A stretch of DNA of 64,000 nucleotides from Nitrospirota bacterium. Lineage in GTDB: Bacteria; Nitrospirota; Thermodesulfovibrionia; Thermodesulfovibrionales; Dissulfurispiraceae. The stretch is taken from assembly GCA_963790025.1 (NCBI GenBank), contig CAWBMP010000004.1, positions 960,001 through 1,024,000 on the forward strand, read 5' to 3'. Numbering within the stretch: position 1 is the stretch's first letter; every line of letters begins with the position of its first letter. The position numbers and the translations under genes were made by a program. The notes under the pieces are model-generated. The model did no database searches, was not told where the DNA came from, and worked only from the letters and a program-made list of their open reading frames with translations. Below are positions 7,043 through 64,000 of this stretch, piece after piece.

Positions 7043-7066
7043 ATATGAAATTGACACAGTGTAAAA

Positions 7067-7732
7067 ATGGATAGTTCAGTACTCTTTTCAATGAGACTCT
7101 CTTTGCAGGTAGCGACCACGGCGACGGTCTTCATCGTGGTTATCGGGGTCGCCGCTGCCTATCTGCTTGCTCGAAAGGACTTCAGGGGCAAGGAAGTATT
7201 GGACATAGCCATTACCTTGCCTCTCGTGCTTCCCCCAACTGTCACGGGCTATTACCTGATAGTGCTCTTCGGCAGAAACGGATTGATCGGCAGATTCATT
7301 TACGAGTGGACAGGCTGGTCTATCATGTTCACATGGTATGCTGCCGTTCTAGCCTCATTTGTTGTGGCCCTGCCCCTCATGGTAAAAACAACGCGGGCGG
7401 CCATTGAATCAGTGGACAAGAACCTCATCAATGCCTCCTTCACGCTGGGCCATTCCGAATTCGAGACCGCGCTTAAGGTCATCCTGCCCCTCGCAAGGAA
7501 AGGCATAGTGGCTGGGACTGTGCTCTCTTTTGCACGGGCCCTCGGCGAGTTCGGAGCTACCCTGATGCTGGCAGGGGACTTGCCAGGCAAGACGGATACC
7601 ATGCCCATCGCCATTTATTCTCTTGCCGGAAGCGGAGATTGGTCGAAAGCCAATGGGATGGTCATTCTGTTGACTTTGATGTCAGGGGCCTTTCTATATT
7701 TAGCAAACAGGTACAGTAAAAGGATTATCTGA
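7067..7732 (+). CDS. modB: Molybdate ABC permease
   Basis: LPLVLPPTVTG, FARALGEFGAT. Confidence 0.93.
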   Translation: MDSSVLFSMRLSLQVATTATVFIVVIGVAAAYLLARKDFRGKEVLDIAITLPLVLPPTVTGYYLIVLFGRNGLIGRFIYEWTGWSIMFTWYAAVLASFVVALPLMVKTTRAAIESVDKNLINASFTLGHSEFETALKVILPLARKGIVAGTVLSFARALGEFGATLMLAGDLPGKTDTMPIAIYSLAGSGDWSKANGMVILLTLMSGAFLYLANRYSKRII

Positions 7733-43131: not shown

Positions 43132-44151
43132 TTAATTGCTGCGCTCAGACTCTGCTGATGCTCTTTCAAAAGCGGCGTCAGTCATTGAGCCTATGTAGTC
43201 CGCAACCATCCTTTTGATTGATGTGGTTGAAATGTAGCCCCTGTCCATTGCTTTGACCCATCGGCCAATGTCCGAGTCCATTCCCCTGCGAAGCTGTTCG
43301 CAACATGAATAAAAAAGGAATCGGAAACTGCTTTCCCGTTTCTTCCTCAACTGTTCAGATGCCGCATAGGAATATATGGCCCGGTAATTAAACGCGAGCA
43401 ATCCCTCAATCGCCTTAAACACCCTTTTCGAAAAAGCGACCATGGAGCTGCTGCTCTGTCTGACCAAGTCATCAATCAGGATGTCCCTGATAGAAGCTTC
43501 CGTATCGCCAAGCACACAAGCGATTTGATCAGGTATATCGCCCCGGGTTATGAGGCCCACTGCAATGGCGTCCTCGATGTCACGGCCTAAATAGGCAATG
43601 ACATCAGAGGCGCGCACTATGCAGCCCTCGAGAGTCATCGGCATAATCAGAGTGCTGTAGTGCGCCACTTTAAAACAGCTATTGAGTTCTGTTTCGAAAC
43701 ATGTCCAGGTCTTGCGGTAATTGGGGACATACTGTCTGCGTAACATCTCGCCGTTGTGGCAGAGGATTCCATCCAGCACCGGCAGCGACAACTCCAGTCC
43801 GTTTTCAAGCACCGTGAGTATCCTTGCGCTCTGGGCGTTATGGGCAAAGAATCCGCAGCCCGACTCCATGCACAGGGCATTCAGATATGCCTCTCCTTCG
43901 TGACCATATGGCGTATGCCCCAGGTCGTGACCAAGTGCGATTGCCTCGGTGAGATATTCGTCACACCTTAATAAACGGGCTATCCAGCGGGCCACGTGAC
44001 TGACGAGTTGCACATGTAGCCACCTCCGGGTGATTCCATCTCCTGCTCCCGCCTGAAACGCCTGGGTCTTGTCATACCGGGCATACGCTTTTGACCCAAT
44101 AATCACCCCGCTTTCCTTAAAATAGTCGGCTCCGGCCTGCATTGTTTTCAT
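43132..44151 (-). CDS. HD-domain dNTP triphosphohydrolase (dGTPase-like), divergent N-terminus
   Basis: KTQAF, GHDLGHTPYGHEGE, HNAQS, SDVIAY..RDIEDA, DYIGSMTD. Confidence 0.88.
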   Translation of the reverse strand: MKTMQAGADYFKESGVIIGSKAYARYDKTQAFQAGAGDGITRRWLHVQLVSHVARWIARLLRCDEYLTEAIALGHDLGHTPYGHEGEAYLNALCMESGCGFFAHNAQSARILTVLENGLELSLPVLDGILCHNGEMLRRQYVPNYRKTWTCFETELNSCFKVAHYSTLIMPMTLEGCIVRASDVIAYLGRDIEDAIAVGLITRGDIPDQIACVLGDTEASIRDILIDDLVRQSSSSMVAFSKRVFKAIEGLLAFNYRAIYSYAASEQLRKKRESSFRFLFYSCCEQLRRGMDSDIGRWVKAMDRGYISTTSIKRMVADYIGSMTDAAFERASAESERSN

Positions 44152-44175
44152 ACTCTTCGTTCCTCCTTTTCAAAC

Positions 44176-44217
44176 AAAAAAAAGGCTGATGCCCTAACGT
44201 TCGGGCAGTCAGCCTTT
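44176..44217 (-). terminator. Terminator/attenuator directly before the RBS of the dNTPase gene
   Basis: Minus AAAGGCTGACTGCCC-GAACGTTA-GGGCATCAGCC-T8-GTTTG-AAAAGGAGG. Confidence 0.85.
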
Positions 44218-44241
44218 CTTTAAATGGCTATTACTCTTTGC

Positions 44242-44409
44242 CTATACTTTGCTAAGGATCCACCCTAGCCTCTTCCGGTCCGATTCAGGCAACGTTGAAA
44301 GTGCCCGTATTACGAGCCAAGGCTTCTCTTTTATCAGTGCTTCTATCCTTTTATAGCTGCTCGTGCCGGTAGTTCCCTTGTCTCTTGCTATGTGTCTGCC
44401 GCCGTTCAT
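44242..44409 (-). CDS. Small basic hypothetical protein (55 aa)
   Basis: SD AAGGAGG with normal spacing; lies between two terminators. Confidence 0.5.
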   Translation of the reverse strand: MNGGRHIARDKGTTGTSSYKRIEALIKEKPWLVIRALSTLPESDRKRLGWILSKV

Positions 44410-44429
44410 TGTGCACCTCCTTTTCAAAC

Positions 44430-44478
44430 AAAAAAGGCGGCCGGCTTTTCACTCCGAAGGAGCTACTTGCCGGCCGCC
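44430..44478 (-). terminator. Terminator/attenuator directly before RBS
   Basis: Minus GGCGGCCGGC...GCCGGCCGCC-T6-GTTTG-AAAAGGAGG. Confidence 0.85.
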
Positions 44479-44504
44479 ATGATTGCTGCAATTAAGAAGT
44501 TATG

Positions 44505-44816
44505 TTACTGCGGTGATATCCCGCTGCGTACCATATGTAACCGAGTTTTGCCGTCACATATGTCCATGGCAGCGATAAGCATGGAAAGTACTCTTTCTGT
44601 TGCAAGCTGAAGTTCCTTTTCAGACCACTCGGGGTGGGCAGCTTTGTTGGCCCTATAAACTTCCATGAAGTTGTAAGACTTTTTGATCGTGTTGCAATTA
44701 ACGCGGATGGAAGAGTTAATCGCCCCTCCTGTCGCCACGTTATCCCCGGCAACTGCAAGACCTGCCGGTATTAAGGCTAAAGCTAAAGCAATTGCGAGAC
44801 TGTAATGTGTTTTCAT
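44505..44816 (-). CDS. Small exported hypothetical protein
   Basis: SD AAGGAGG; signal peptide MKTHYSLAIALALALIPAGLAVA; two Cys. Confidence 0.65.
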   Translation of the reverse strand: MKTHYSLAIALALALIPAGLAVAGDNVATGGAINSSIRVNCNTIKKSYNFMEVYRANKAAHPEWSEKELQLATERVLSMLIAAMDICDGKTRLHMVRSGISPQ

Positions 44817-44862
44817 AACTTCCTCCTTAGGGCTTGCGAATAAATAACTTGCCCTTAAAAAC

Positions 44863-44908
44863 AAAAAAAGGCACAGCCCCTTCCAATGGTTGGGAGACTG
44901 TGCTCTTT
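44863..44908 (-). terminator. Leader terminator/attenuator upstream of first cassette gene
   Basis: Minus GCACAGTCTC..GGGGCTGTGC-C-T7-G. Confidence 0.75.
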
Positions 44909-45753
44909 CTGTGTTGCCTAATTTTTAACTTATTGTTTTTCGCAAAAAATATTTAAGCGGCAGGATAAAAATTCTCCAATACTGTTTTTTTGAGATGATG
45001 TTGATATGTCGCTTGAGGAGTAGATTGATCCAAGGTTGATATAAAACCTTTTGGAAATCAATCAAAAAAAACTTTATGAAAATTGTCGTTAGATTCGTCA
45101 GTGAAGGTTATTTCTAAAAATACTATAATAATAAAGGGCTGCCTTGTAAATAAAAAAGGGACATTAACAGTGAAACCAATTGAAATGTCTATGAATTACG
45201 TTTGATAAAAACTACGCTCCCCCCATTTGCCCCAAGATGGCGGAAGAAACTCGTAAAAACAAAGAGATACTCTTTAAAAGAACCTTCAAAAACAAAAGAA
45301 CTCTTAAAAGAATAAAACGAAAATATTTATTCATACATAATCGGTATATAATTTCACTCATTCCCAATTACTTTTCAATGTGTTCACAGTTTCCCAGTAA
45401 CTCTCTAGTCATGACTATAGTCACCTGTTGACTTACTAATCAGTCATTACTCCAGTCACCCTTCTTCTGCCTTTTGGTAGTGTTGAAAGGTTAGAGGTTA
45501 GACAACCTCAAACCTTTCAACTTGCTATCAATAAGAAAGCTACATGCTAACAAAAAAGCGTCTTCCTTACTGCTGAAAGCATATTGCTATCGAAAGTAAT
45601 ATCTATTTACGTACAGCATACAGCGTTCAGTGTTCAGCGTACTCCGTTGCAAACAAGACAGTTAATTATTGCAGTTTCAGTCGGTTAGAGCTTTTTAACT
45701 GTACGCCGAACACAGTACGGTGAACATGTTACGCAAAAGGGGGGTAGAGTATT

Positions 45754-46737
45754 ATGAAGATAGGAATTGATGTAGGATACGGGTATACCAAGGTCGTCAC
45801 AACGCATTCCTCAATTATCTTTCCATCCCGTGTGGGTCCTGCCAGGGAGTTGTCGTACTCGCTCAAAGAAGGCACTGACGTTATGGGAGAAACTGTCGAA
45901 TATGAGGGCGAACGATATTTTGTAGGGGAGAAGGCAAGACATAGCGATGTTACCTACACCCTCATGACAAGAGGCTGGATCGAGAGCAAGATGTATGGGG
46001 CATTGCTTACTTCGGCCCTTACCAGGGCAATGAACGGCAGATATGCTTTAGCTGACCCTGAAGAAATAATTATTGTCACCGGCCTTCCCGTAGATTATAT
46101 GAGAGATAAAACCAAAGCCGAAGAGAGCCTCGGAAAGGCGTGCGATGGGATTGGCCTCCGTATCACAGGCATCAATATAATACCGCAGCCTTTCGGCTCT
46201 TTTTTTGACATGTTTTACGATAATAACGGTGATATTGCCGGCAGCGCACCTTTCTTAAAAAGGATTGGGATAGTCGATATCGGTTATCACACCACGGATT
46301 ATATTCTTATCGAGGAGGCTCAACGCAATATCGAGAAGGCCTCTGGCAGCGTTCCTACTGGGGCCCATGAGATATACGATATTGTAGCCAGAGAATTAAA
46401 GAACATGTTCGACAGAGATACAGTTACTGCGGAAGAGGCCGAGCACTGCGTTAAAACCAAACATTATAAAGTCTCGGGTCAAAACAAAGATATGGGTACC
46501 CTGGTTGGCCGAGTGCTGTCACAAGTGGGGCAAAAGATAACTGGTATTGTTAAATCTAAATGGAACCTTGAAGGAGAAATTGACATTGTCCTGCTAACCG
46601 GAGGCGGAGCTGCGCTTATTCAGCCGCACATCTCATCTATAGCGCATACTCACTTCCTGATAAATGAACCCCAGATGGCCAATGCGCGAGGATATTATAA
46701 GAGGAGCGTCATCCTGGAACGAAAAATTAAAGGTTAG
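45754..46737 (+). CDS. ParM/StbA-family actin-like ATPase
   Basis: GIDVGYGYTK, TGLP, PQP, DIGYHTTD, LTGGGA, ANARGY. Confidence 0.9.
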   Translation: MKIGIDVGYGYTKVVTTHSSIIFPSRVGPARELSYSLKEGTDVMGETVEYEGERYFVGEKARHSDVTYTLMTRGWIESKMYGALLTSALTRAMNGRYALADPEEIIIVTGLPVDYMRDKTKAEESLGKACDGIGLRITGINIIPQPFGSFFDMFYDNNGDIAGSAPFLKRIGIVDIGYHTTDYILIEEAQRNIEKASGSVPTGAHEIYDIVARELKNMFDRDTVTAEEAEHCVKTKHYKVSGQNKDMGTLVGRVLSQVGQKITGIVKSKWNLEGEIDIVLLTGGGAALIQPHISSIAHTHFLINEPQMANARGYYKRSVILERKIKG

Positions 46738-49693: not shown

Positions 49694-50635
49694 CTATTTA
49701 AAAATAAGTTCCGGTTTTTTCATGAACACGCGTGTATCGGGCGGTACCGAGTCTGTAATCCACACGTTCCCCCCGATTACCGAACGGGCGCCAATCACTG
49801 TATCGCCACCCAATATGGTCACGCCTGAATAGACGATTACGTCATCCTCAAGTGTTGGATGGCGTTTTTCATTGCGGAGCTGTCCCACTTCATCTTTCGA
49901 GAGAGAAAGTGCCCCAAGCGTGACTCCCTGATATATCCGTACGCGGTCTCCGATTTTCGTTGTTTCCCCGATAACCACACCGGTCCCGTGGTCGATGAAA
50001 AAACTCTCCCCGATTCGGGCGCCAGGATGAATGTCGATGCCTGTCACGCTGTGCGCATATTCAGACATTATACGGGGGACCAGCGGAACATTTTGCCTAT
50101 AGAGCTGGTGTGCCATCCGGTGCACGGTAACTGCAAAGAGACCGGGATAACTGAATATCACTTCATCGTAGCTCTTCGCTGCAGGATCACCGTCATAGGC
50201 AGCGCGAACGTCCTTGGCGAGCAAGGTCCTCATATGAGGAAGCTCCTGCATAAAATTTACAGTAATCTCCTCGCCTTGCTCTTCGCATACGACGCACTCA
50301 AGGTTACGGCGGCGGCATTCATGACGTATTGCAAAGGTGACCTGTTTCGACAACTTTTCAAAAAACGTCGTTACTTCCTGCCCATAATAGTAGACCAGAT
50401 TAACTTTATCTATTCGCGTGGGGGAGAAGTAACCTGGATACAATAATCCACACGCCATATGCGTAATCTCTATGATAGATTCCTTTGAAGGCAGTGGTTC
50501 CAGGTCTACATGGTCAAAACAATTTTGTGCATGGCAGACTGCTACAAGGTTCTCCACTATTACAGGAATTTGGTCGCGAAACTGCCTATGTTTTTCTATA
50601 CTGATACTACACTGCTCAGAATCAGTCCTGTCCAT
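49694..50635 (-). CDS. cysE: Serine O-acetyltransferase
   Basis: GDPAA, GIDIHPGA, IDHGTGVVIGET, KRHPT. Confidence 0.92.
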   Translation of the reverse strand: MDRTDSEQCSISIEKHRQFRDQIPVIVENLVAVCHAQNCFDHVDLEPLPSKESIIEITHMACGLLYPGYFSPTRIDKVNLVYYYGQEVTTFFEKLSKQVTFAIRHECRRRNLECVVCEEQGEEITVNFMQELPHMRTLLAKDVRAAYDGDPAAKSYDEVIFSYPGLFAVTVHRMAHQLYRQNVPLVPRIMSEYAHSVTGIDIHPGARIGESFFIDHGTGVVIGETTKIGDRVRIYQGVTLGALSLSKDEVGQLRNEKRHPTLEDDVIVYSGVTILGGDTVIGARSVIGGNVWITDSVPPDTRVFMKKPELIFK

Positions 50636-50725: not shown

Positions 50726-51319
50726 CTAAACACCTGCTGCCGCAGTCAGCGCCGAGTATGGCACAGCACGGCGGGCCCATTCGCTCCCCGGGTATTTCTC
50801 CGTCAGGGTATCGTAAGCCCTGCGCAATGGTGAAGCCTCATGAAACTTCTTGTACTCGGCCACACCCAGATAAAAAATAGCCTCTGGAGTTGCCCCTGCA
50901 TTTGGATGCTGCTCTATGACTGAAGTGAATGCCTTGATCGCGTCGTTAAAGTGGTCGGTGTCGAAAAAGACCTTTGCCCTGCCAAGTTCAAGATGGGCAA
51001 GCAGGTCATCAATGGGGACATATCCCACTATCCGGTGGTGCTCTTTCCCCGACTTACCGTGGATTATAAGGGTCGGGGTCCATTTGATGTTAAATTGTTC
51101 CATAAGCTCAACCGGCTTATCAAAGAAGCACTGGGTTTTCAGAGGAATGAAATTATCCTGGATAAACTTCTGGACCTGCTCACTTGAATACGGACCCGTA
51201 TTCATTGCAGCGCAACCAATTCAACCGTCAAACCAGAAATCATGATAGATCGGCTTGCCTTCCCTTTTAGCCTTTTTTATTGCCTCGTTGAAGTTCCCTT
51301 CCCATATTATCTCGGCCAT
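50726..51319 (-). CDS. Selenocysteine thioredoxin-fold + TPR-like protein (UxxC), 197 aa
   Basis: SD GGAGG, MAEIIWE...DFWFDG-U-IGC; in-frame TGA 51223-51221; hairpin TGAATACG-GGTC-CGTATTCA 16 nt downstream; WTPT cis-Pro motif. Confidence 0.85.
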
Positions 51320-51359: not shown

Positions 51360-54300
51360 TCATTTATCATGAAACTGACCTGATGTCAAACACCCTGTTC
51401 CTGCACGCACCCGTTTGCCGGTGATTATCCTTGACGCATTGCTTTCAAGTGTATCTATCCTACCCTCAAATGCTGCATTAGCCAAAATCGTGGTTGTCCT
51501 CTGAAATGCTGCCGACGCAAGAAAACTTTTTGAGTACAGCGGTATCTGACTGATGCCGAGGAGCACGGGAGTCGCTGTCGGAGGCTTCAAGCCTCTTCGC
51601 CGGGTCCTGTCACACTCATCTTCAAATTCGCTCTTATGAATAATATCACCTGTCAGAAACCTTGCCCCCCGGCTGTCTGTAACTTTCACAAATCCGGTCA
51701 TCTGGCTAAGTATTATTTCAAAATGCTTGTCATGTATTACCACTCCCTGTTTGCGGTATATCTTCTGGGCTTCATCGAGTAAATATTTCCACACTGCTCC
51801 GCCACCTGCAGCATGCAACAGATCATGGGGGTTGACTGCACCGTCAATGTTACTGAGCTCCGCCGCTCTGCGCGGCCTTCTTGCTTCAAGAAGGTCAATA
51901 ACCTCCGGAAGCCCGCCGGTTATGTCCATGGGAGTGACAACTGCTCCACCGGTATGAAATGTTCGCAGGGTAAGCTGGGTCCCGGGCTCACCTATGGACT
52001 GAGCTGCGATAATACCCACCGCGTCCCCTGTCTCTGCGGGCCTGCGGCTGCCGACATTGAATCCGTAGCAGCGCGCACAAACGCCGCGTTGCGCCTTGCA
52101 GGTAAGCACAGACCGCACTTTGACCTTTTCTATTTTTGCCTTGCTGATTTTTGCCGCTGTCGCTTTATCCAAAACGGTGCCATACGATACGAGCACAGTG
52201 CAGGAGTCTATGTCCAGAACGTTATCTGCCAATGCCCTGCCGGTTATTCTCTCCTCCAGAGAAATTTCTACTGTACCGCCGTTCTTCAGCGGTCCAAGGT
52301 AAATGCCTTCGAGCGTCCCGCAATCATCCGTAGTTACGATGAGGTCACGCGCAGCACTCACCAGCCTTCTCGTAAAATAGCCCGCCGCCGGCGTCTTCAT
52401 GGGGCCATCCACCCTGCCCTTTCGCGCCCCGTGCGTGGAAAGAAAAAACTGGAATGCACTTAACCCTTCTCTGAAATTCGATGTAATCGGCATTTCTACA
52501 ATTTCACCCGTGGGCTTGGCCATCAAACCCCTCATGCCGTTTATTTGGCGTATCTGGTTGAAGTCGCCTCTCGCGCCAGAATCACACATCATAAAAAGGG
52601 CATTGGATTCTACATGCCGGTCTTCTTTTAATACGCGCATCGCTTCAGATGTTATCCTGTCGGTTGCTCTCGTCCATACGTCGATTTCCTTATTATGCCT
52701 TTCGTTGTCAGACATCAAACCGGTTTCATAATGGCTCCTCACCTCCGCTGCTTCCTCCTCTGCCTCAGCAACAATGGCCGCCTTTTCGGAAGGGACGAGC
52801 ATGTCATCAAGACAAAGCGATATGCCCGACAACGTCGCATATTTAAACCCAATGCCTTTTATCTCATCCAGAAACCTGATCGTCTCCCTGACGCCGCACT
52901 TTTCATAGCACAACTCGATTAAGCCGGCAAGTTCCTTTTTATTTAAGACTTTATTTATTACCGCGAAGGGTATACCTGCTGGAGTTATGGCATAGAACAG
53001 CACCCTTCCAGCCGTTGTTCTTACCAAGGCGCCATCTATTCTGACCTGAATGCTGGAATGTTCTTCTACAATATTGTTTGCATATGCAATACACACCTCG
53101 TCCACATCCGAGAAAAGCATTCCTTCCCCTTTTCCCCTTTTTCCCGATTTCCCATCGCTGGTCAAATAATAAATACCCAGGACAATGTCCTGAGACGGCA
53201 ATAAAGCAGGCCTGCCGTTGGCCGGATGGAATAAATTGTTAGTGGACATCATGAGGACCCTCGCCTCTATCTGTGCTTCAAGTGAGAGAGGCACATGCAC
53301 TGCAATGGTATCTCCGTCAAAATCGGCATTGAAGCCCGAACACACAAGAGGATGGAGCCTTATTGCAGCGCCTTCAACAAGGACAGGATCAAAGGCTTGC
53401 ATGCTTAATTTATGCAAAGTCGGCGCCCGGTTTATTATGACTGGATGCTCGGCAATTATATCATCGAGGGCGTCCCAGACTTCTGGTTTCTCTTTTTCAA
53501 AAAGCCGCTTTGCCTGTTTCAGCCTTGGGGCAAACCCATTTTTAATAAGCCACCGGTATATAAATGGCCTGAAAAGCTCAAGTGCCATTGCCTTCGGAAT
53601 GCCGACCTGATGGATTTTCAATTCCGGCCCTATAGTAATATGTGCCCTTCCGGAATAGTCGACCCTTTTGGCAAGAAGATTATGTCTGAATATTCCACTC
53701 TTAGAGCTTATCATCTCTGAGAGCGATTTAAGCGGCCTTTTTTGAGACCGGTTTTTGACGGCAACATTCCTGCCATTGTCGAGCAGGCTGTCAACTGCGG
53801 CCTGAAGAAGCCTTTTTGCATTCTGAAGTATTATTTCTGGAGCGCCGAGGTGAATAAGTCTTCGCAAGCTTTGATTTTTGTAAATGACCTTGCTATAAAG
53901 CAGATTAAGATCGGAGGCAACAGTAGTCCCGGCGTCAGGAAAAATTATGGGGCGCAGGTCAGGGGGCAATACAGGCAGCATGTCTAAAATCATCCACTCC
54001 GGTTTGTTTCCGGACTTCAGGAGTTTCTCGATCAAAGAGAGTCTGCTTCTTTTTCTCAGGGATAACGTGCCATTCTCTTTAAGTCCCTTCGGAATGGCAT
54101 CCAGGTCAAGGCCTGTAAGTAGTTTCCTGATCGCTTCCGCACCGGTTTCAACATGGAAATGATCGCATGAAGTCCGGTATTTTCTGTACTCTTCATGTGT
54201 AATTGTCTGGTTCTGTTTGAGACCGCTGTCGCCCGGATCAATTACAACATAAAATTCGTATTGCACGATTTTTTGGACCTGCCGGGGAGGCAGTCCCAGT

Positions 54301-54671
54301 ATCCTTGCAAGAACGCTTTTAGGCCCTTTGTAATACCAGATGTGCGCAACAGGCGCAGCGAGAGTTATGTGGCCGAGTCTTTTTCTTCTCTCTTCCGGTT
54401 CCAGCAGCCCCGTACCGCAAGTCTTACATGAGGCTGCTCCACCGTTATCTGTGCCACAAGAACATTTACCCTTTCTTACCGGGCCGAATATTCCTTCGCA
54501 GAATAACCCATTTTTTACCGGGCCGCCATTTTTTAAACTGAATGTTTCCGGCGAAGACACCTCGCCATAAGATAATAAACTCTTCCCGAGGGGACTTAAA
54601 AGACCGATTCTAAGAGAATCAAATGCCTGATTATCGATCATAGGTTGTTGGCTGCAGGGACATGCCTCCAT
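51360..54671 (-). CDS. rpoC: Orphan divergent RNA polymerase beta-prime paralog (1103 aa; start uncertain)
   Basis: GLFCEGIFGP, PVLPPDLRP, KRVDYSGR, NRAPTLH, NADFDGD, SGARG, GEPGTQLTLRTFH, DITGGLP, DKHFE, AGTG. Confidence 0.95.
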   Translation of the reverse strand: MEACPCSQQPMIDNQAFDSLRIGLLSPLGKSLLSYGEVSSPETFSLKNGGPVKNGLFCEGIFGPVRKGKCSCGTDNGGAASCKTCGTGLLEPEERRKRLGHITLAAPVAHIWYYKGPKSVLARILGLPPRQVQKIVQYEFYVVIDPGDSGLKQNQTITHEEYRKYRTSCDHFHVETGAEAIRKLLTGLDLDAIPKGLKENGTLSLRKRSRLSLIEKLLKSGNKPEWMILDMLPVLPPDLRPIIFPDAGTTVASDLNLLYSKVIYKNQSLRRLIHLGAPEIILQNAKRLLQAAVDSLLDNGRNVAVKNRSQKRPLKSLSEMISSKSGIFRHNLLAKRVDYSGRAHITIGPELKIHQVGIPKAMALELFRPFIYRWLIKNGFAPRLKQAKRLFEKEKPEVWDALDDIIAEHPVIINRAPTLHKLSMQAFDPVLVEGAAIRLHPLVCSGFNADFDGDTIAVHVPLSLEAQIEARVLMMSTNNLFHPANGRPALLPSQDIVLGIYYLTSDGKSGKRGKGEGMLFSDVDEVCIAYANNIVEEHSSIQVRIDGALVRTTAGRVLFYAITPAGIPFAVINKVLNKKELAGLIELCYEKCGVRETIRFLDEIKGIGFKYATLSGISLCLDDMLVPSEKAAIVAEAEEEAAEVRSHYETGLMSDNERHNKEIDVWTRATDRITSEAMRVLKEDRHVESNALFMMCDSGARGDFNQIRQINGMRGLMAKPTGEIVEMPITSNFREGLSAFQFFLSTHGARKGRVDGPMKTPAAGYFTRRLVSAARDLIVTTDDCGTLEGIYLGPLKNGGTVEISLEERITGRALADNVLDIDSCTVLVSYGTVLDKATAAKISKAKIEKVKVRSVLTCKAQRGVCARCYGFNVGSRRPAETGDAVGIIAAQSIGEPGTQLTLRTFHTGGAVVTPMDITGGLPEVIDLLEARRPRRAAELSNIDGAVNPHDLLHAAGGGAVWKYLLDEAQKIYRKQGVVIHDKHFEIILSQMTGFVKVTDSRGARFLTGDIIHKSEFEDECDRTRRRGLKPPTATPVLLGISQIPLYSKSFLASAAFQRTTTILANAAFEGRIDTLESNASRIITGKRVRAGTGCLTSGQFHDK

Positions 54672-54773
54672 TATTTTGTCGCAACAAGACGCTATAGTAA
54701 ATATTACTTTCTTAATTGATATTTACGGCATTTGTTTTACGATATGTATATCGATGATATTTTAGGAGGACAA

Positions 54774-55019
54774 ATGGTAACAACTACAATATCACCTAAA
54801 TATGAGGAAGAAGCACTTGTTGCAGCAGGTCTTATCAACAGGACATCGGTTATTAAGCTCACTGAAAGCATTGCTATCTTCGCAGCAGACCTGAGCCTGA
54901 AATGCGGGCTGCCGATGGCCGATGCTGTTGTATACGCCACTGCACGGGAGGAAGATTGCCAGGTAGTGACTGGTGATGCCCATTTTAAGGGGCTCGACAA
55001 AGTTGAGTTTATTTCATAA
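54774..55019 (+). pseudogene. Collapsed vapBC: AbrB-type antitoxin N-terminus fused to the C-terminal half of a PIN toxin
   Basis: SD AGGAGG; MVTTTISPKY then ...LPMADAVVYATA..VVTGDAHF; PIN N-terminal acidic motif missing. Confidence 0.7.
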
Positions 55020-58825: not shown

Positions 58826-59107
58826 AAGAATCCTCTTTTTATTGTCCCGTCCCCTGTAGGGGGGTAAAAACCAGGGGACGGGAATGTTAGGCCTTCATCA
58901 GGATATTACTTTTAAATTCTTCTCAGTGTACCCAGGAGATTATTTCTCCATTATGATTTATTGTTTCATTGTGCAATAGGAGGGACATCGATTACATAAA
59001 ATTCTTGACATTTTTATATAATCCTTCTTAATTTACCGTATGTGCTTTGATTATTCGGGGTGATTAGTTCCAGAACTCTGCGCACTACTATGCTTAAGGA
59101 GGTATGT

Positions 59108-62100
59108 ATGGGCGTATCCAGAAGAGATTTCCTGAAGATTTCCGGCGGATCTGTTCTTGCGGGGTCTTTGGGAGTGGGAGTTAAACAGGCAGAAGCAGAT
59201 ACAGCAGAGCTTAAAATCAAAAATGCAAAAGAGACCCTTACCATATGCCCATTTTGCTCCGTGGGTTGCGGCATTGTTGTACACTCGGCAAACGGCAAAG
59301 TCATAAATACCGAGGGCGATCCAGATCACCCCATAAACGAAGGCACGCTCTGCTCAAAAGGCTCCTCGATGTATCAGGTCATAAACAATCCGTCCCGGCT
59401 CACAAAGCCGCTCTACCGTGCACCAGGCGCCGCTCAATGGAAAGAGGTTGAGTGGGAATGGGCCTTTGATGAGATTGCAAATAGAATAAAAGATACGCGT
59501 GACAGGACGTTCAAAACCACCTCAAAGTCAAAAGTGAAAGAAAAGGGCCCTGATGGAAATGAAGTAGAGGTAGAGAAGGAATTCTTGGTCAACCGGACCG
59601 ACGGGATCGCCCATGTGGGAAGCGCCGCCCTTGATAATGAGGAATGCTATCTGATACAGAAATGGGTCCGCTCTCTGGGACTTGTTTATGTAGAGCACCA
59701 GGCCCGAATATGACACTCCGCAACTGTAGCGGCTCTGGCAGAGTCGTTCGGACGCGGTGCAATGACAAACCACTGGATAGACCTCAGGAATGCCGATGTT
59801 ATTCTCGTAATGGGTGGAAACCCTGCGGAAAACCATCCCATATCAATGAAATGGATCATGATGGCCAGGGAGAGAGGCGCAAAACTCATAGTCGTTGATC
59901 CGCGTTTTACCCGTACTGCAGCAAAGGCCGATATATATGCCTCACTTCGTTCAGGGACCGATATCGCTTTCCTCGGCGGCATGATTAAATACATTTTCGA
60001 TCACAACCTCTACTTCAGGGATTATGTCGTGAATTATACCAATGCAGCATTTCTTGTTAATCCTGACTTCAAAGGCCCTGGAGAATTGGAAGGACTCTTC
60101 TCCGGATATGACCCCAAAGCCAGAAAATATGATAAAAAGACATGGTCCTTCCAGATGGACGCAAGCGGCGTACCGAAGAAAGACCCGACACTCAAAGATC
60201 CCCATTGTGTTTTTCAGCTGCTAAGGAAACAGTATGCACGTTATACTCTCGATAAAGTTTCAAGCATTACCGGGACCCCGAAGGAAGACCTCCTGAAGGT
60301 ATACAAAACTTATGCCTCAACCGGAAGGCCGGACAGGGCAGGCACCGAATGTTACGCAATGGGCTGGACCCAGCATACGGTAGGGACCCAGAATATAAGG
60401 ACCATGTCAATAATCCAGCTCCTTCTCGGCAATATTGGAATAGCCGGGGGTGGAGTAAACGCCCTGAGAGGCGAATCCAATGTCCAGGGTTCTACAGATC
60501 ACGGGCTGCTTTTCCACGTATTGCCGGGTTATCTTCCGGTGCCCAGTGCTACAGTTGTTGATCTGAAAGCCTACATAGACAAATTCACCCCGAAGACAAA
60601 AGAGCCTAAAAGCGTGAATTGGATGAGCAATATAGGCAAATACATGACGAGTTACCTGAAAGCTATATACGGGGACCATGCGACAAAGGAAAATGATTTC
60701 GGATATGCCTGGCTTCCCAAGCCCGATGAAGGAATGAACGCATCATGGCTCATGATTTTTGACCAGATGTTCAAGGGGAAATTCGATGGTTTCTTTGCCT
60801 GGGGACAAAATCCCGCATGTTCGGGTGCGAATTCTATCAAGACGAGAAAGGCACTGGCAAAGCTGAAATGGATGGTGAATGTAAATCTGTTTGATAATGA
60901 AACAGGCTCGTTCTGGAGGGGCCCCGGAGTGAATCCAAAAGAAATTCAGACTGAGGTCTTCATGCTTCCATGCTGCTCATCGGTTGAAAAGGAAGGCAGC
61001 ATCTCTAATTCAGGGCGCTGGGCACAATGGCGATACAAGGCGATACCTCCTATCGGCCAATCCAAACCGGACAGTGACATCATGAATGAACTCTTCTTCA
61101 GAGTAAAAAAACTCTACGCCCGCAAAGGCGGTGCATTCCCAGCCCCGATACTGAACCTGACATGGAACTATGGTGAAAGAGGTCCGGACGGGAAGGTCAA
61201 AGAGATCAATACTCACCTCATCGCCAGGGAGATTAACGGGTACTATCTTGAAGACCTATTTGACAAGAAAGCCACTCCTCCAAAGCAGCTCGGGAAGAAG
61301 GGAGAACTCTGCGCCACCTTCGTGCATCTTCAGGACGACGGATCTACGTCATGCGGCAACTGGATATATAGCCAGAGTTATACTCAGAAAGACGGGAAAA
61401 TCATTAATATGATGGCGAGGAGGAAAAAGACCGATCCTACAGGGCTGGGACTTTATCCTGAATGGTCGTGGTGCTGGCCAGTGAACAGGAGGATAATCTA
61501 CAATCGCGCATCCGTTGACCCGCAAGGCAGGCCGTGGGACCAGAAAAGGGTCCTTCTTAAATGGAACGCCGAAAAAGAAGATCCCAACACAAAAAAGCCC
61601 GGCGTATGGGAAGGAGATGTGCCTGACGGCCCTGCTCCTCCGTTAGCTTCGGAAAAAGGGAAATACCCTTTCATCATGAAGCCGGATGGCGTGGGTTCTG
61701 TGTTCGGGCCGGGACTTAATGACGGGCCGTTCCCTGAACATTATGAGGCGCTCGAATGTCCCGTGCATGAAAATCCGATGTCGAAGCAGAGGATCAATCC
61801 CGCAATCAAACTTTTTGCTGATACAGACACGTTCTCGTGTGATTTAAGGTTCCCTTACGTGGCTACAACATATCGCATTTCCGAGCACTGGCAGACAGGT
61901 GTCATGACGAGGCATGAGCCGTGGCTGCTTGAGGCGGTCCCGCAGCAGTTCGTCGAAATGAGCGAGGAGCTTGCCAGGGACAAGAATATTAAATCAGGCG
62001 ATAAAGTAACTATAAAATCCGGTCGCGGCGAAATATGGGCCGTTGCAGTGGTGACAAAAAGATTCAAGCCTTTTAAGATCGCGGGCGGCATAGTGCACCA

Positions 62101-62254
62101 GGTAGGGCTGCCGTGGTGTTTTGGATGGCAGTATCCCGAGGACGGCAGCGGAGGCGACAGTTCCAATATTTTGACCTCCACCATTGGTGACGCAAATACC
62201 ATGATCCCTGAATCCAAGGCCTTCATGGTGAATATCGAGAAGGCAAAGGTATAG
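59108..62254 (+). CDS. fdnG: Formate dehydrogenase alpha subunit, selenocysteine, Tat-exported
   Basis: SRRDFLK; CPFCSVGC; HQARI-U-HSATV (TGA 59711-59713) in frame with ORF 59762-62254; SECIS-like GCGGCTCT-GGC-AGAGTCGT. Confidence 0.95.
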
Positions 62255-62262
62255 GAGGAGAT

Positions 62263-63078
62263 ATGGCAACCGCAATTAAAACAAAAGGCGCATTGATAGA
62301 TTTGACCAAGTGCATTGGATGCAGGGGCTGTCAGATCGCCTGCAAAAACTGGAACAGCCGCTCGGTGAAAAAAACAGTGATGACCGGCAATTTTACCAGC
62401 CCCGTTGATCTTAACTCTGAGACGTATACTATGGTGAAATTTGTTGAGCAGGAGCACGACAACAGGCTCGGATGGGATTTCATAAAACTGCAATGCATGC
62501 ACTGTAATGACCCGGCATGCGCATCCGTGTGTCCCGTAGGCGCTTTAAAAAAGAGCCCTGCCGGACCGGTCATTTATGAAGCCGACCGCTGTATCGGCTG
62601 CCGGTACTGCATGCTGGCTTGTCCGTTCCAGGTCCCCAAATATGAATGGGAAAAGACGTTTCCGCTTGTTCAAAAGTGTACGTTCTGCGCTGACAGGATA
62701 GCAGGTGGGATGACGCCTGCCTGTGCAAAGTCATGTGCACCCGGCGCAATTCTTTTCGGTGATCATGAAAAGGTCGCCGCCGAAGCCGAGCGCCGTATCA
62801 GGGAACACCCCAATAAATATGTGAATCACATTTATGGAAAGGAGGAAGCGGGCGGCACATTATGGATGTACATATCAGGCGTTCCCTTTGAGACCCTGGG
62901 CTTCAGAATGAACATCCCCAAAGTTGCCCTTCCTTCATTAACATGGGCATCTCTGGCAAAACTCCCTTATGCAGTCGGCGGCCTGGTGACCATTCTGTCG
63001 CTTATTGCCTATTTCAGAAACCGCGGAGCAGAACATGAATCTGCCACGCGGAACAACAGCGAGAAGGAGGGACAATAA
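62263..63078 (+). CDS. fdnH: Formate dehydrogenase Fe-S beta subunit with C-terminal TM
   Basis: CIGCRGCQIAC, CMHCNDPACASVCP, CIGCRYCMLACP, KCTFC. Confidence 0.9.
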   Translation: MATAIKTKGALIDLTKCIGCRGCQIACKNWNSRSVKKTVMTGNFTSPVDLNSETYTMVKFVEQEHDNRLGWDFIKLQCMHCNDPACASVCPVGALKKSPAGPVIYEADRCIGCRYCMLACPFQVPKYEWEKTFPLVQKCTFCADRIAGGMTPACAKSCAPGAILFGDHEKVAAEAERRIREHPNKYVNHIYGKEEAGGTLWMYISGVPFETLGFRMNIPKVALPSLTWASLAKLPYAVGGLVTILSLIAYFRNRGAEHESATRNNSEKEGQ

Positions 63079-64000
63079 TGAATACAATCGAAAGCCGGCC
63101 AACTGCATCATTTTTGTCGCCGGGCACGCTGATATTGATAGCGTTAATTTTCATAGGAGGGTTTGCCGCTTTCTACCGCTTCGCAAACGGATTGGGCGCG
63201 GCTACGAACCTTAGCGATAACGTACCCTGGGGCTTATGGATTGCGTGCGATGTCCTGAGTGGAGTGGCGCTTGCAGCCGGAGGTTTTACCATAACAGCGG
63301 CAGTCTATATCTTCAATATGAAAAAATACAAACCTATTGCCCGCCCTGCCATCCTGACTGCATTTATCGGTTATCTGATGGTCATCGTAGGGATCGTCAT
63401 CGACATAGGACAGCCCCTCAGGATAATGCATCCCATCTATATGTGGCAGCACCGTTCCGTCATGTTCGAGGTTGTCATATGCGTTGCTCTTTATACAGCG
63501 GTGCTCACGCTCGAATTCGCCCCATCTTTTCTTGAACGGTTCAGGCTTCATGGATTGCTGAAAATCCTCAAATTCTTCACTTTCCCGATTGTGATAGCAG
63601 GCATCACCCTTTCGTTCCTTCACCAGTCTTCGTTGGGTGCCCTCTACTTAATAGTACCAGCTAAGATGAGCAAGCTCTGGTACTCTCCTGTCATGCCTCA
63701 GATGTTTTATTTATCAGCTATCTGTGTGGGATTGGCAATGACGAATTTTGAGACTATAATGAGCGCCAGGGTATTCAAAAAAGAATATGAACACGACATT
63801 ATCAGTGGACTTGCAAAGGGGACTTCGATAGCGCTTCTCATATATCTTGTACTTAAAGTAATAGACCTGCAAGTCAGAGGGGCTTTACCGCTGCTTTTTG
63901 GCGGAAGTGCGGCTGCCAAAATGTTCCTCTCCGAAATAACAATTGGTGTCATCGCGCCAATGGTGATGCTCTGGATCAAAAATATTCGCGAGTCGATCGG
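63078..64000 (+). CDS. NrfD/HybB-family membrane anchor (3' truncated; absent from ORF track)
   Basis: ATG overlaps fdnH stop; RFANGLGAATNLSDNVPWGLWI..DV..GVALAAGG, SVMFEV, LSFLHQSSLG. Confidence 0.9.
   Translation, partial: MNTIESRPTASFLSPGTLILIALIFIGGFAAFYRFANGLGAATNLSDNVPWGLWIACDVLSGVALAAGGFTITAAVYIFNMKKYKPIARPAILTAFIGYLMVIVGIVIDIGQPLRIMHPIYMWQHRSVMFEVVICVALYTAVLTLEFAPSFLERFRLHGLLKILKFFTFPIVIAGITLSFLHQSSLGALYLIVPAKMSKLWYSPVMPQMFYLSAICVGLAMTNFETIMSARVFKKEYEHDIISGLAKGTSIALLIYLVLKVIDLQVRGALPLLFGGSAAAKMFLSEITIGVIAPMVMLWIKNIRESI

What the first reader, a model, noticed from the sequence alone, without database searches (positions are those of the whole stretch)
51360..54671. Orphan, streamlined RNA polymerase beta-prime paralog: candidate alternative RNAP core subunit
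Seen: an uninterrupted 1103-aa beta-prime ORF with no rpoB, rplL or rpsL nearby, flanked by a selenoprotein gene and a TA relic. The catalytic core is kept (NADFDGD at 53310-53330, NRAPTLH, trigger-loop RTFH, both sets of Zn cysteines). Established: housekeeping rpoC is normally single-copy, lies after rpoB and is nearly invariant in the motifs changed here. Inference: an intact frame plus a conserved active site amid heavy divergence suggests selection on a second beta-prime. It could assemble with host alpha2-beta into a specialised polymerase, or act as a decoy that sequesters beta.
Basis: partly seen in the sequence, partly recalled or inferred. Interest (0 to 1): 0.92.

Follow-up and report, generated by a model that had tools for sequence, protein, structure and literature searches.

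The report
Second, stripped-down RNA polymerase β′ subunit
A sulfur-cycling Nitrospirota bacterium carries, far from any other polymerase gene, an intact but fast-evolving and trimmed copy of the catalytic subunit of RNA polymerase, which most likely builds a second kind of transcription enzyme beside the housekeeping one.

Summary
Window 51360-54671 (minus strand) is an intact 1103-aa β′ (TIGR02386 1262.6 bits, cutoff 963.5). All catalytic and zinc residues are present, and no other RNAP gene lies in the 64 kb.

It belongs to a small, apparently undescribed β′ clade of Nitrospirota: 18 of the 120 best database clusters, in short and long forms.
- The clade is only 47-55% identical to the 102 canonical Nitrospirota β′.
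- It carries fixed changes at universally invariant sites. These include two prolines in the bridge helix and remodelled lid, clamp helices and C-terminus.
- The short forms lack both SI3 (187 aa) and the jaw (52 aa).

The gene sits beside groEL in at least four other genomes. It diverges about 3.5 times faster than GroEL, whereas canonical β′ keeps pace with GroEL. The cultured relative Dissulfurispira thermophila (GroEL 89% identical) has a canonical β′ and no detected copy of this clade.

A paralog beside a housekeeping rpoC is therefore strongly implied, but I could not show the housekeeping copy in this genome.

Best reading: an accessory, catalytically competent alternative β′ giving a pause-insensitive core with an altered σ interface. 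A published precedent exists (alternate β′ in Beggiatoaceae), but that one has lost its catalytic triad.

The parts
51360..54671 (-). Coding sequence of the β′ paralog (P0001, 1103 aa). Orthologue N-termini suggest the real start may be Met11.
54417..54464 (-). N-terminal zinc site, C70/C72/C82/C85, kept. The surrounding zipper/Zn-binding region is heavily changed: 16 of 48 canonical-invariant columns.
53913..53951 (-). Lid loop (residues 241-253, aligned to E. coli 251-263). 7 of 10 canonical-invariant columns are changed.
   Evidence: region limits recalled from the literature
53775..53912 (-). Clamp helices / coiled-coil, the σ-binding surface (residues 254-299). 11 of 33 invariant columns are changed, 8 of them fixed in the short forms, including E. 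coli R275K, R278S, E295A and E301A.
   Evidence: role of R275/E295/A302 from PMC8321222
53310..53330 (-). NADFDGD Mg-binding motif (D450, D452, D454), kept. The next residue is Q->T (E. coli Q465) in 14 of 16 clade members.
52347..52457 (-). Bridge helix (residues 739-775) with P757 (52401-52403) and P761 (52389-52391). The changes are E. coli L783R, A784V, T786G, A787P, A791P, L796F and Q805R.
52068..52322 (-). Second zinc site, C784 and C858/C865/C868, kept.
51879..51992 (-). Trigger loop without an insertion. R903 and H906 are kept, with M932L in E. coli numbering. The junction where SI3 (E. coli 941-1127) is missing lies at 51939-51944.
51843..51848 (-). Junction where the roughly 50-aa jaw segment (E. 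coli 1160-1211) is missing.
51429..51443 (-). C-terminal motif SNASR in place of the universal GLKEN (E. coli 1346-1350). The tail after AGTG is also truncated (E. coli 1372-1407 absent).
50726..51319 (-). Downstream gene, possibly co-transcribed (40-nt gap). It encodes a selenocysteine (TGA 51221-51223) thioredoxin-like + TPR protein. It is listed as context, not as a shown functional partner.
54672..54773 (.). 102-nt divergent intergenic region between the paralog and the PIN fragment, presumably holding the promoter. One weak σ70-like match on the minus strand (54783-54754) is no better than the shuffles.

Best explanation
The gene encodes an accessory, vertically inherited and fast-evolving β′ paralog that is still catalytically competent. 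It belongs to a β′ clade of Nitrospirota (Thermodesulfovibrionia) that I did not find described.

Proposed mechanism (inferred): the protein takes the place of housekeeping β′ in part of the cell's α2β(ω) cores. Two consequences follow.
- Elongation. The enzyme would lack the SI3-jaw module that holds the trigger loop open, and its bridge helix would be proline-kinked. It should therefore add nucleotides with little hairpin-stabilised pausing.
- Initiation. The zipper/Zn domain, lid and clamp helices are remodelled, so its use of σ or other initiation factors should differ from the housekeeping core.

Shown:
- The intact gene and its membership of the clade.
- Conservation of the catalytic residues.
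- The loss of SI3 and jaw.
- The fixed substitutions at universal sites.
- Linkage to groEL and the 3.5-fold rate.

Inferred:
- Coexistence with a canonical rpoBC in this genome.
- Assembly with β.
- The kinetic and σ consequences.
For: 1. Family and catalytic core.
- TIGR02386 scores 1262.6 bits against a cutoff of 963.5, and all five Rpb1 domains are present.
- D450/D452/D454, trigger-loop R903/H906 and both zinc sites are invariant in the clade alignment.

2. A distinct clade.
- 18 of the 120 best clusters are of this type, against 102 canonical ones whose bridge-helix and trigger-loop motifs do not vary.
- The clade is monophyletic with support of 100.

3. Constraint.
- 284 of 1071 columns are invariant in all 16 full-length members. 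256 match the canonical majority and 28 are clade-specific.
- Conservation profiles correlate with the canonical ones (Spearman 0.49).
- Of 99 changes at 446 canonical-invariant columns, 47 are the same new residue in at least 10 of 11 short forms.

4. Not the ordinary orthologue.
- P0001 is 52.1% identical to D. thermophila β′, while the GroELs are 89.3% identical.
- Between two Dissulfurispira, canonical β′ is 95.5% and GroEL 95.2% identical.
- Nine canonical β′ clusters lie at the expected 88.9-90.8% from D. thermophila.

5. Vertical inheritance and rate.
- Four exact contig-length matches link GroEL and clade members (159401, 68242, 33014, 27246).
- In 10 of 10 genome pairs the paralog diverges 2.9-5.6 times as fast as GroEL.

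6. Patchy presence.
- No clade member was seen for the D. thermophila chromosome (2,445,501 bp), which does hold a canonical β′.
- None was seen for 6 large-contig relatives inside the same 31-row GroEL clade.

7. Native composition. The RSCU distance of 0.273 is the second lowest of 23 window genes.

8. Literature.
- ΔSI3 and Δjaw E. coli RNAPs are active and shorten his-pause lifetime about 3- and 5-fold, non-additively (PMC4227799, passages).
- Prolines in the C-terminal hinge of the bridge helix are tolerated and can raise activity (PMC2988716, passages).
- E295K in the coiled-coil impairs holoenzyme formation (PMC8321222, passages).
Against: - No canonical rpoC or rpoB of this genome was found. 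None lies in the window. No canonical β′ cluster representative sits on a 1,736,176-bp contig among the 120 rows listed in each.
- The accession look-ups did not link any clade member to a canonical copy in one assembly.
- 'Absent from relatives' rests on contig lengths of cluster representatives only, so absences are weak evidence.
- There is no orthologue DNA, hence no dN/dS. There are no expression data.
- The first proline (E. coli A787, central bridge helix) lies in a stretch reported as sensitive to proline in the archaeal enzyme (PMC2988716), so the enzyme might be slow or inactive.
- The mean column entropy of the clade (0.89) exceeds that of the canonical set (0.53), so part of the divergence is relaxation.
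- Under LG+G4 the clade does not nest with Nitrospirota canonical β′ (AU p=0.0006), so its origin is unresolved.
- No structure model was obtained.
Confidence: 0.55

Rival explanations
1. Spare β′ that resists an inhibitor. The paralog forms an active core, as in the best explanation, but what is selected is insensitivity to a natural RNAP inhibitor that targets the bridge helix, trigger loop, lid or switch region. This would parallel the second rpoB of some actinomycetes.
For: The fixed changes cluster in the bridge helix (11 of 30 invariant columns), lid (7 of 10) and around the active site. These are sites where, from recall, several RNAP inhibitors bind. Actinomycete rpoB paralogs give two RNAP forms (PMC5431353, abstract start seen in the listing). 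Presence among close relatives is patchy.
Against: No biosynthetic or resistance genes lie next to the gene. The loss of SI3 and jaw and the clamp-helix changes are not explained by resistance. No inhibitor is known for this habitat. Nothing was tested.
Confidence: 0.12
2. Non-transcribing regulator or decoy. The protein binds β, α or σ and withholds them from the housekeeping enzyme. This was proposed for the alternate β′ of Cand. Maribeggiatoa and Thioploca ingrica.
For: The published precedent is an orphan β′-like gene suggested to be a negative regulator (PMC4679880, abstract and sections 21 and 26). Here, universal bridge-helix and C-terminal motifs are altered, and a central bridge-helix proline may cripple catalysis (PMC2988716).
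Against: Unlike the Beggiatoaceae proteins, which lack a complete D-D-D triad, all 16 full-length members here keep NADFDGD, the trigger-loop arginine and histidine (R903 and H906 in P0001; the two residues between them vary among the long forms) and both Zn sites. The F-loop (22 of 24 invariant columns) and trigger loop (20 of 22) are nearly untouched. A decoy has no need to keep these.
Confidence: 0.12
3. Sole β′. The housekeeping rpoC was lost, and this fast-evolving gene is the only catalytic subunit in this genome and in other carriers.
For: No canonical rpoC of this genome was found. The protein passes the NCBIfam rpoC cutoff and keeps the catalytic core.
Against: Close relatives have canonical β′ at the identity expected from GroEL. 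The clade is much older than the split between carriers and non-carriers: long forms occur in Cand. Nitrobium versatile and a Nitrospirales MAG. The two types therefore coexisted for a long time. Carriers and apparent non-carriers interleave in the GroEL tree. rpoC without an adjacent rpoB is rare: 66 of 68 testable loci have a large ORF directly upstream.
Confidence: 0.07
4. Decaying duplicate with no function, still open by chance or because of recent origin.
For: It evolves 3.5 times faster than GroEL. Its entropy is higher than canonical. Two domains are lost. A broken PIN gene lies next door.
Against: 16 intact full-length members span 53-79% identity. 284 columns are invariant. 47 substitutions are fixed to the same new residue. 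Topology matches that of GroEL. A gene under no selection would not stay open over that much divergence.
Confidence: 0.05

Closest known systems
Putative alternate β′ subunits of Cand. Maribeggiatoa (BOGUAY_0018) and Thioploca ingrica (THII_0330), MacGregor 2015, PMC4679880
   Same: A second, different β′-like gene in a genome. It is not next to rpoB, its N-terminal interaction regions are kept, and it differs in the SI3 region. The authors suggest it competes for the β′ place in the core (abstract, sections 21 and 26). PMC6403173 independently lists T. ingrica as the only one of 2,307 Proteobacteria with two rpoC and one rpoB.
   Different: Those proteins lack a complete D-D-D triad and are followed by a hybrid sensor kinase. 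The paper found them 'in no others'. The clade here keeps the triad, the trigger-loop arginine and histidine (R903/H906 of P0001) and both Zn sites. It lacks SI3 and jaw in its short forms, has two bridge-helix prolines, and sits beside groEL in a different phylum. I did not have the Beggiatoaceae sequences, so kinship is untested.
Second rpoB (rpoB(R)) of Nonomuraea and other actinomycetes, PMC5431353
   Same: A paralog of a catalytic core subunit gives two RNAP forms in one bacterium (abstract start in the listing).
   Different: It concerns the other subunit (β) and another phylum. From recall, the differences are a few residues linked to rifamycin resistance and secondary metabolism, not domain losses.
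Francisella α1/α2, PMC3294249
   Same: Two non-identical genes for one core subunit, both used in the enzyme (abstract start in the listing).
   Different: Both α proteins sit in the same enzyme as a heterodimer. No alternative catalytic subunit is involved.
Largest subunits of plant Pol IV and Pol V (NRPD1/NRPE1)
   Same: Works-like analogy only. These are non-essential paralogs of the catalytic subunit that share the second-largest subunit. Their bridge helix and trigger loop are relaxed and remodelled, including a natural bridge-helix proline (PMC2988716, passages).
   Different: They are eukaryotic, arose independently, and have the proline at the position of archaeal S824 rather than at A818/A822. 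No membership is implied.
SI3-less housekeeping β′ of Bacillota (about 1170-1200 aa)
   Same: There is no insertion in the trigger loop (3 residues in the SI3 region in L013 and L025). Overall length is similar. The nearest ESM-Atlas feature clusters are 1171-1199 aa.
   Different: The Bacillota proteins keep the jaw (50 residues in both) and the canonical bridge helix, and they follow rpoB. P0001 is only 44-47% identical to them.

Membership tests
Bacterial RNAP β′ (RpoC, NCBIfam TIGR02386 equivalog) | Score above the curated cutoff over the full length | tested here: met
   1262.6 bits against a cutoff of 963.5, in two stretches, residues 20-947 on profile positions 2-943 of 1147.
Bacterial RNAP β′ (RpoC) | Five Rpb1 domains in order | tested here: met
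   PF04997, PF00623, PF04983, PF05000 and PF04998 are all above their gathering scores.
Bacterial RNAP β′ (RpoC) | Mg-binding NADFDGD, trigger-loop Arg/His, and two Cys4 zinc sites | tested here: met
   D450/D452/D454, R903/H906, C70/C72/C82/C85 and C784/C858/C865/C868 are all present.
Housekeeping (canonical) β′ | Universal bridge-helix sequence (G-L-A-D-T-A-L-K-T-A) | tested here: not met
   P0001 has G-R-V-D-G-P-M-K-T-P. L783, A791 and Q805 are the same residue in 117, 117 and 116 of 117 canonical sequences, and none of those sequences carries the clade's residue. 0 of 176 Nitrospirota-type canonical sequences and 1 of 93 diverse representatives have any proline there.
Housekeeping (canonical) β′ | Jaw segment present | tested here: not met
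   P0001 and all 11 short forms have 0 residues in this region. All 102 canonical Nitrospirota have at least 50 residues. All 14 canonical β′ from loci have 50-62 residues, including 2 SI3-less Bacillota.
Housekeeping (canonical) β′ | Gene directly downstream of rpoB | tested here: not met
   There is no rpoB in the 64 kb. In the control set, 66 of 68 testable canonical loci have an ORF of at least 900 aa directly upstream. One of the two exceptions (L012) has one by the listing, and L005 was not checked.
Housekeeping (canonical) β′ | Divergence from relatives in step with other housekeeping proteins (orthology) | tested here: not met
   P0001 is 52.1% identical to D. thermophila β′ where GroEL is 89.3% identical. 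The canonical pair is 95.5% where GroEL is 95.2%. The rate ratio to GroEL is 2.9-5.6 in 10 of 10 pairs.
Core-subunit paralog coexisting with a housekeeping copy (as for rpoB(R) and the Beggiatoaceae alternate β′) | A second, canonical gene for the same subunit in the same genome | tested here: inconclusive
   Only indirect support. The direct tests failed: the genome scan missed the clade, no accession link was found, and no canonical representative sits on the 1,736,176-bp contig.
Beggiatoaceae-type alternate β′ (PMC4679880) | Incomplete D-D-D catalytic triad, with a hybrid sensor kinase directly downstream | tested here: not met
   The triad is complete. The downstream genes are a Sec-thioredoxin-like protein and a CysE-like acetyltransferase. 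Sequence kinship was not tested because those sequences were not in hand.
Phage or plasmid RNAP subunit, or defence-system component | A close relative on a phage or plasmid record, or a PADLOC model hit | tested here: not met
   The best tblastn identity is 47% in plasmid records and 46% in phage records. All such hits are ordinary rpoC, many on mislabelled chromosomes. There were 0 PADLOC hits. The only strong PHROGs hit is a full-length β′-like family of unknown function.

The most novel reading that the evidence does not exclude
Some Thermodesulfovibrionia run two RNA polymerase cores. One is the housekeeping enzyme. The other is built on this β′: naturally SI3-less and jaw-less, with a proline-kinked bridge helix and its own σ/initiation interface, and dedicated to a particular gene set or growth state.

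That would be a bacterial counterpart of the specialised eukaryotic polymerases (Pol IV/V-like evolution of the catalytic subunit).

The apparently independent co-loss of SI3 and jaw in a second, distant branch (P0175 beside the long form P0154) would then mark a recurrent route to a 'pause-blind' polymerase.
Probability: 0.35. Interest if true: 0.85.

Novelty: new variant of a known kind. Interest (0 to 1): 0.62.

Why it matters
Bacteria are generally held to have a single RNA polymerase core and to retarget it with σ factors. The documented exceptions are few:
- Two α genes in Francisella.
- A second β gene in some actinomycetes.
- An apparently inactive β′-like gene in two Beggiatoaceae.

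A conserved β′ paralog with an intact active site would add an alternative catalytic subunit to that short list.

It would also be a natural experiment on three much-studied parts of the enzyme:
- The SI3-jaw module, which is essential or important in E. coli.
- The bridge helix, where natural prolines were called exceedingly rare.
- The σ-binding clamp helices.

There is a practical side. TIGR02386 is, from recall, used as a single-copy marker, so genomes with this gene may be scored as contaminated.

The proposal is directly testable by reconstitution. A cultured relative, Dissulfurispira thermophila, could supply the partner subunits.

Tried and rejected
1. Genome scan for orthologous loci. 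The 80 loci returned are ordinary rpoC of many phyla at 42-51% identity, with no clade member among them. That used the only genome-contig scan. Hence there is no orthologue DNA, no dN/dS, no synteny by DNA and no view of the rest of this genome.

2. Linking clade members to canonical copies by accession series. Only P0008 (MBF0557265.1), P0015 (MFO0753586.1), P0147 (MCC6346551.1) and P0294 (MBZ0154952.1) carry accessions. None of the 10 canonical proteins looked up lies in the same series. This is uninformative rather than negative.

3. Looking for a canonical β′ on a contig of 1,736,176 bp. None was found among the 120 rows of each call. The figures describe cluster representatives only, and only the best 120 rows are shown.

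4. Supplementary tables.
- PMC8906906: 0 occurrences of rpoC or RNA polymerase terms in the one file held.
- PMC5812927: the file could not be searched. Its metaproteome could bear on expression.

5. Structure prediction. The first job failed after 19 calls. No model and no fold search were obtained.

6. Complex prediction was not sent. β plus β′ exceeds the size limit, the host's β, σ and ω are not in hand, and a textbook pair would pass by likeness to solved structures.

7. Mobile or defence origin is rejected.
- No PADLOC hit.
- The best tblastn identity on any plasmid or phage record is 47%.
- Codon usage is native.

8. Rfam found nothing in the window. The promoter and terminator scans were no better than shuffles.

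9. The ESM Atlas returned only β′ clusters of 1170-1199 aa and no model.

10. Origin of the clade. An AU test rejects grouping it with Nitrospirota canonical β′ (p=0.0006). Long branches are involved, so I draw no donor from it.

11. Literature. None found a paper on a β′ paralog in Nitrospirota. The only β′ precedent found is PMC4679880.

Full report
**1. The observation**

Window 51360-54671 holds, on the minus strand, an uninterrupted ORF of 1103 codons.
- It matches all five Pfam Rpb1 domains.
- It scores 1262.6 bits on NCBI's rpoC equivalog model, whose cutoff is 963.5.
- Its best solved relatives are ordinary bacterial β′ chains, the best being 7ye1_D at 1070.7 bits.

None of the other 143 ORFs of at least 90 aa in the 64 kb matches an RNAP subunit, a σ factor, L7/L12 or S12.

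The flanks are also as described.
- Downstream, 40 nt after the stop and on the same strand, lies a thioredoxin-like/TPR gene with an in-frame TGA.
- Upstream and divergent lies a truncated PIN domain.

The window is ordinary chromosome. It carries nif genes, two glnA, amt genes, glnE, groEL, ispG, mltG and a Sec-formate dehydrogenase. The gene's codon usage is among the closest to its neighbours.

**2. What it is related to**

Of the 120 best clusters in 5.8 billion, 18 (query included) form one group and 102 are canonical Nitrospirota β′. The split is sharp.
- All 102 canonical proteins share one bridge-helix sequence and one trigger-loop sequence.
- All 18 others differ in both.

The group has three sub-types:
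- Short forms of 1053-1127 aa, 66-77% identical to P0001 by BLASTP (69-79% in my global alignments).
- Long forms of 1325-1341 aa, 56-59% identical.
- Two more divergent long forms, P0017 and P0018, 53-55% identical.

Canonical proteins are 47-55% identical to P0001.

Named members are MAG proteins: 'Nitrospirae bacterium' (MBF0557265.1), 'Thermodesulfovibrionales bacterium' (MFO0753586.1), 'Nitrospirales bacterium' (MCC6346551.1) and 'Candidatus Nitrobium versatile' (MBZ0154952.1).

In trees the group is monophyletic (support 100) on a long stem of 0.65 substitutions per site in FastTree.

In the library clustered at 50% identity it collapses to two representatives plus a fragment. Everything else is at most 49% identical.

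Three further proteins without names (P0154, P0175, P0200) join it with support 100. They share its Leu-to-Arg and Thr-to-Gly changes in the bridge helix and the Met-to-Leu change in the trigger loop, but they lack the prolines. Long branches meet there, so this wider kinship is a lead only.

**3. How it differs from a housekeeping β′**

I aligned it with 117 canonical proteins: the 102 above, 14 from the loci (12 from other phyla, 2 Nitrospirota) and E. coli K-12.

Of 446 columns at least 98% invariant in those 117:
- P0001 keeps 330, changes 99 and lacks 17.
- 47 of the 99 changes are the same new residue in at least 10 of 11 short forms.
- 28 are the same in at least 14 of 16 full-length members.

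The changes are concentrated (region limits in E. coli numbering are recalled from the literature):

| Region | Changed / invariant columns |
|---|---|
| Lid | 7 of 10 |
| Clamp helices | 11 of 33 (8 fixed) |
| Bridge helix | 11 of 30 (8 fixed) |
| C-terminal region | 10 of 24 (7 fixed) |
| N-terminal zipper/Zn domain | 16 of 48 |

Little or nothing changed elsewhere:

| Region | Kept / invariant columns |
|---|---|
| Residues 501-648 | 23 of 23 |
| F-loop | 22 of 24 |
| Trigger loop | 20 of 22 |
| Around the active site | 45 of 52 |

Twenty-eight columns are invariant in all 16 members yet differ from the canonical majority. They include L783R, A791P, Q805R, M932L and L1347N. At the four sites other than M932L, none of the 117 canonical sequences carries the clade's residue; at M932L one does.

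The second proline position (A787) holds Pro in 15 of 16 members. P0005 has a one-residue gap there.

Prolines in this helix are rare. 0 of 176 Nitrospirota-type canonical proteins have one, and 1 of 93 diverse representatives does. Weinzierl (PMC2988716, passages read) called natural bridge-helix prolines 'exceedingly rare', known only at two other positions.

**4. Domain losses**

Relative to E. coli, P0001 lacks 941-1127 (SI3) and 1160-1211 (jaw). It also lacks 708-718, 210-215 and the tail after 1371.

The jaw region holds:
- 0 residues in 11 of 11 short forms.
- 49-51 residues in 5 of 5 long forms.
- At least 50 residues in 102 of 102 canonical Nitrospirota.
- 50-62 residues in 14 of 14 canonical proteins from loci, including two SI3-less Bacillota.

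So the long forms show the clade's substitutions without the deletions, and the deletions came later.

P0175, whose nearest relative P0154 is a long form, also lacks both segments. That suggests a second, independent co-loss.

**5. Is it a second copy?**

I could not show a canonical rpoBC in this genome.
- Accession series gave no link.
- No canonical representative sits on a contig of this contig's length.

The indirect case is nevertheless strong.

(a) Relatives with canonical β′.
- The window's GroEL has 119 listed relatives at 86-94% identity, named Dissulfurispiraceae, Nitrospirae or Thermodesulfovibrionales. They include Dissulfurispira thermophila on a 2,445,501-bp contig.
- None of the clade clusters, nor any listed member of those I expanded (P0009, P0012 and P0014 were not expanded), has that contig length.

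(b) Calibration of rates.
- Between D. thermophila and a Dissulfurispira sp., canonical β′ is 95.5% and GroEL 95.2% identical.
- Between the window and D. thermophila, GroEL is 89.3% but P0001 is 52.1% identical to that β′.

(c) Nine canonical β′ clusters lie at 88.9-90.8% from D. thermophila. That is where the canonical copies of the window's GroEL clade (median 89.7%) should lie.

(d) Age. The clade's own depth (short versus long forms, 56-59%) far exceeds the split between carriers and D. thermophila. The two gene types must therefore have coexisted for a long time.

(e) Gene order. rpoC without rpoB is unusual.
- 66 of 68 testable loci have a large ORF directly upstream.
- PMC6403173 (passages) found multiple rpoC in 4 of 2,307 Proteobacteria.

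I put the chance that a canonical copy exists in this genome at about 0.9.

**6. Inheritance and rate**

The two genes are therefore linked in at least four other genomes. In the window they are 12 kb apart.

Both trees pair the same genomes.

Across the 10 pairs of these five genomes, the paralog's divergence is 2.9-5.6 times that of GroEL, with a median of 3.5.

All five linked GroELs fall in one clade of 31 rows (SH-aLRT 91). Presence therefore looks patchy. The caveat is that the contig figures describe cluster representatives only.

**7. How it most likely works**

The catalytic machinery is conserved under selection. What changed falls into three sets:
- The parts that meet σ, promoter DNA and the RNA exit: zipper/Zn domain, lid and clamp helices.
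- The moving helix at the active site.
- The module that restrains the trigger loop.

The experimental literature bears on each.
- In E. coli, ΔSI3, Δjaw and ΔSI3Δjaw enzymes are active. Deleting SI3 or the jaw shortens the his-pause lifetime about 3- and 5-fold, non-additively, because a jaw-SI3 contact lets SI3 hinder trigger-loop folding (PMC4227799, passages).
- SI3 is essential in E. coli unless a trigger-loop suppressor is present (PMC11077087, abstract).
- In the archaeal enzyme, prolines at and just before the C-terminal hinge (A822/Q823/S824) are tolerated and raise activity. The central stretch Q817-R820 is sensitive to proline (PMC2988716).
- By ungapped counting from T821 = E. coli T790, the clade's prolines fall at A818 and A822. 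That mapping is my inference.
- In the coiled-coil, R275Q, E295K and A302D impair holoenzyme formation (PMC8321222, passages). The clade has R275K, E295A (10 of 11 short forms) and A302 unchanged, plus N274Y, R278S and E301A.

I therefore propose an alternative β′ that joins the housekeeping α2β(ω). It would yield a core with easy trigger-loop closure, little hairpin pausing and altered σ use. All of this is inference, and a slow or inactive enzyme is not excluded.

**8. Rivals**

- A spare subunit resistant to an inhibitor (0.12) explains the bridge-helix and lid changes, but not the domain losses.
- A decoy (0.12) has a published precedent, but a decoy has no need to keep the Mg triad, the trigger-loop arginine and histidine, both zinc sites and a nearly untouched F-loop.
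- A sole β′ (0.07) conflicts with points (a) to (e) of section 5.
- A decaying copy (0.05) conflicts with 16 intact members and 284 invariant columns.
- Mobile or defence origin found no support.

**9. Comparison with what is known, and novelty**

The closest precedent is MacGregor 2015 (PMC4679880; abstract and sections 21 and 26 read). It describes orphan, different β′-like genes in Cand. Maribeggiatoa and Thioploca ingrica. These lack a complete D-D-D triad, are followed by a sensor kinase, and are proposed as possible negative regulators.

The present clade differs in four ways.
- It keeps the triad.
- It has other neighbours.
- It has lost SI3 and jaw.
- It lives in another phylum.

Whether the two are kin is untested.

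Other paralogous core subunits are the actinomycete second rpoB and the Francisella α pair (abstract starts seen in the listing).

In my ten searches I found no paper on such a gene in Nitrospirota. The library lacks most subscription journals.

I rate it a new variant of a known kind, with interest 0.62.

**10. What stayed open**

- The rest of this genome, and orthologue DNA.
- Expression, and a structure model (the jobs never returned).
- The closed collections metagenome contigs and viral contigs.
- The supplement of PMC5812927.

Noticed in passing
window 17558-19010 and 23936-25390: glnA is present twice. 1286 nt are exactly identical, and near-identity continues to the gene end, with the copies 6378 nt apart. 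Each copy sits among amt and P-II genes, with glnE at 26603-29419 (-). This is a recent duplication or gene conversion inside a nitrogen-assimilation cluster.
   Followed up: partly
window 50726-51319 (-): Selenoprotein: a thioredoxin-like domain with a U-x-x-C redox motif (TGA at 51221-51223) fused to TPR repeats. It starts 40 nt after the β′ paralog's stop, so it may be co-transcribed. A CysE-like serine acetyltransferase follows at 49697-50635.
   Followed up: partly
window 59060-63998 (+): Tat-signal formate dehydrogenase-N α subunit read through a TGA (59711-59713) as selenocysteine. It is followed by an HmcB/FdnH-like iron-sulfur subunit and an NrfD-like membrane subunit.
   Followed up: partly
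window 54774-55019 (+): 81-aa ORF with a good Shine-Dalgarno sequence that matches only the C-terminal half of a PIN domain (profile positions 53-119 of 120). This is a truncated VapC-like toxin gene with no antitoxin gene seen beside it.
   Followed up: partly
window 43135-46734: A dGTP triphosphohydrolase (PADLOC dGTPase model, E 4.7e-42) lies beside a ParM/ALP-type actin-like partition protein (phrog_691, E 6.3e-53), with about 1.6 kb of sequence without long ORFs between them. This may be a remnant of a mobile element or a defence islet.
   Followed up: no
window 33373-34668 (-): ISNCY-family transposase (NF033594, 415 bits), with GC 42.5% against about 48% around it.
   Followed up: no
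window 12393-14189 (+): A single ORF fuses a PP2C-type Ser/Thr phosphatase (N-terminal) to a Ser/Thr protein kinase (C-terminal). Its GC3 (0.69) is higher than that of its neighbours.
   Followed up: no
window 162-5009 (+): Nitrogen-fixation accessory genes: a fused nifE-nifN, nifX, two P-II-like genes, fdxN and nifB. The mod ABC transporter follows at 6269-8460.
   Followed up: no
proteins P0154, P0175, P0200, P0427 (no window coordinates): A second set of divergent β′ proteins without names shares the Leu-to-Arg and Thr-to-Gly bridge-helix changes and the Met-to-Leu trigger-loop change. One of them (P0175, 1114 aa) also lacks SI3 and jaw, while its relative P0154 (1342 aa) keeps them. They group with the Nitrospirota clade with support 100, but on long branches.
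   Followed up: partly
protein P0218 (no window coordinates): One of the 93 diverse β′ representatives has a proline at the position of E. coli A791, the same position as the clade's second proline. Its origin is unknown.
   Followed up: no
protein P0001 residues 907-915 (window 51927-51953): P0001 has the shortest trigger-loop tip of the clade. The other 10 short forms keep 14 residues in the SI3 region where P0001 has none.
   Followed up: no
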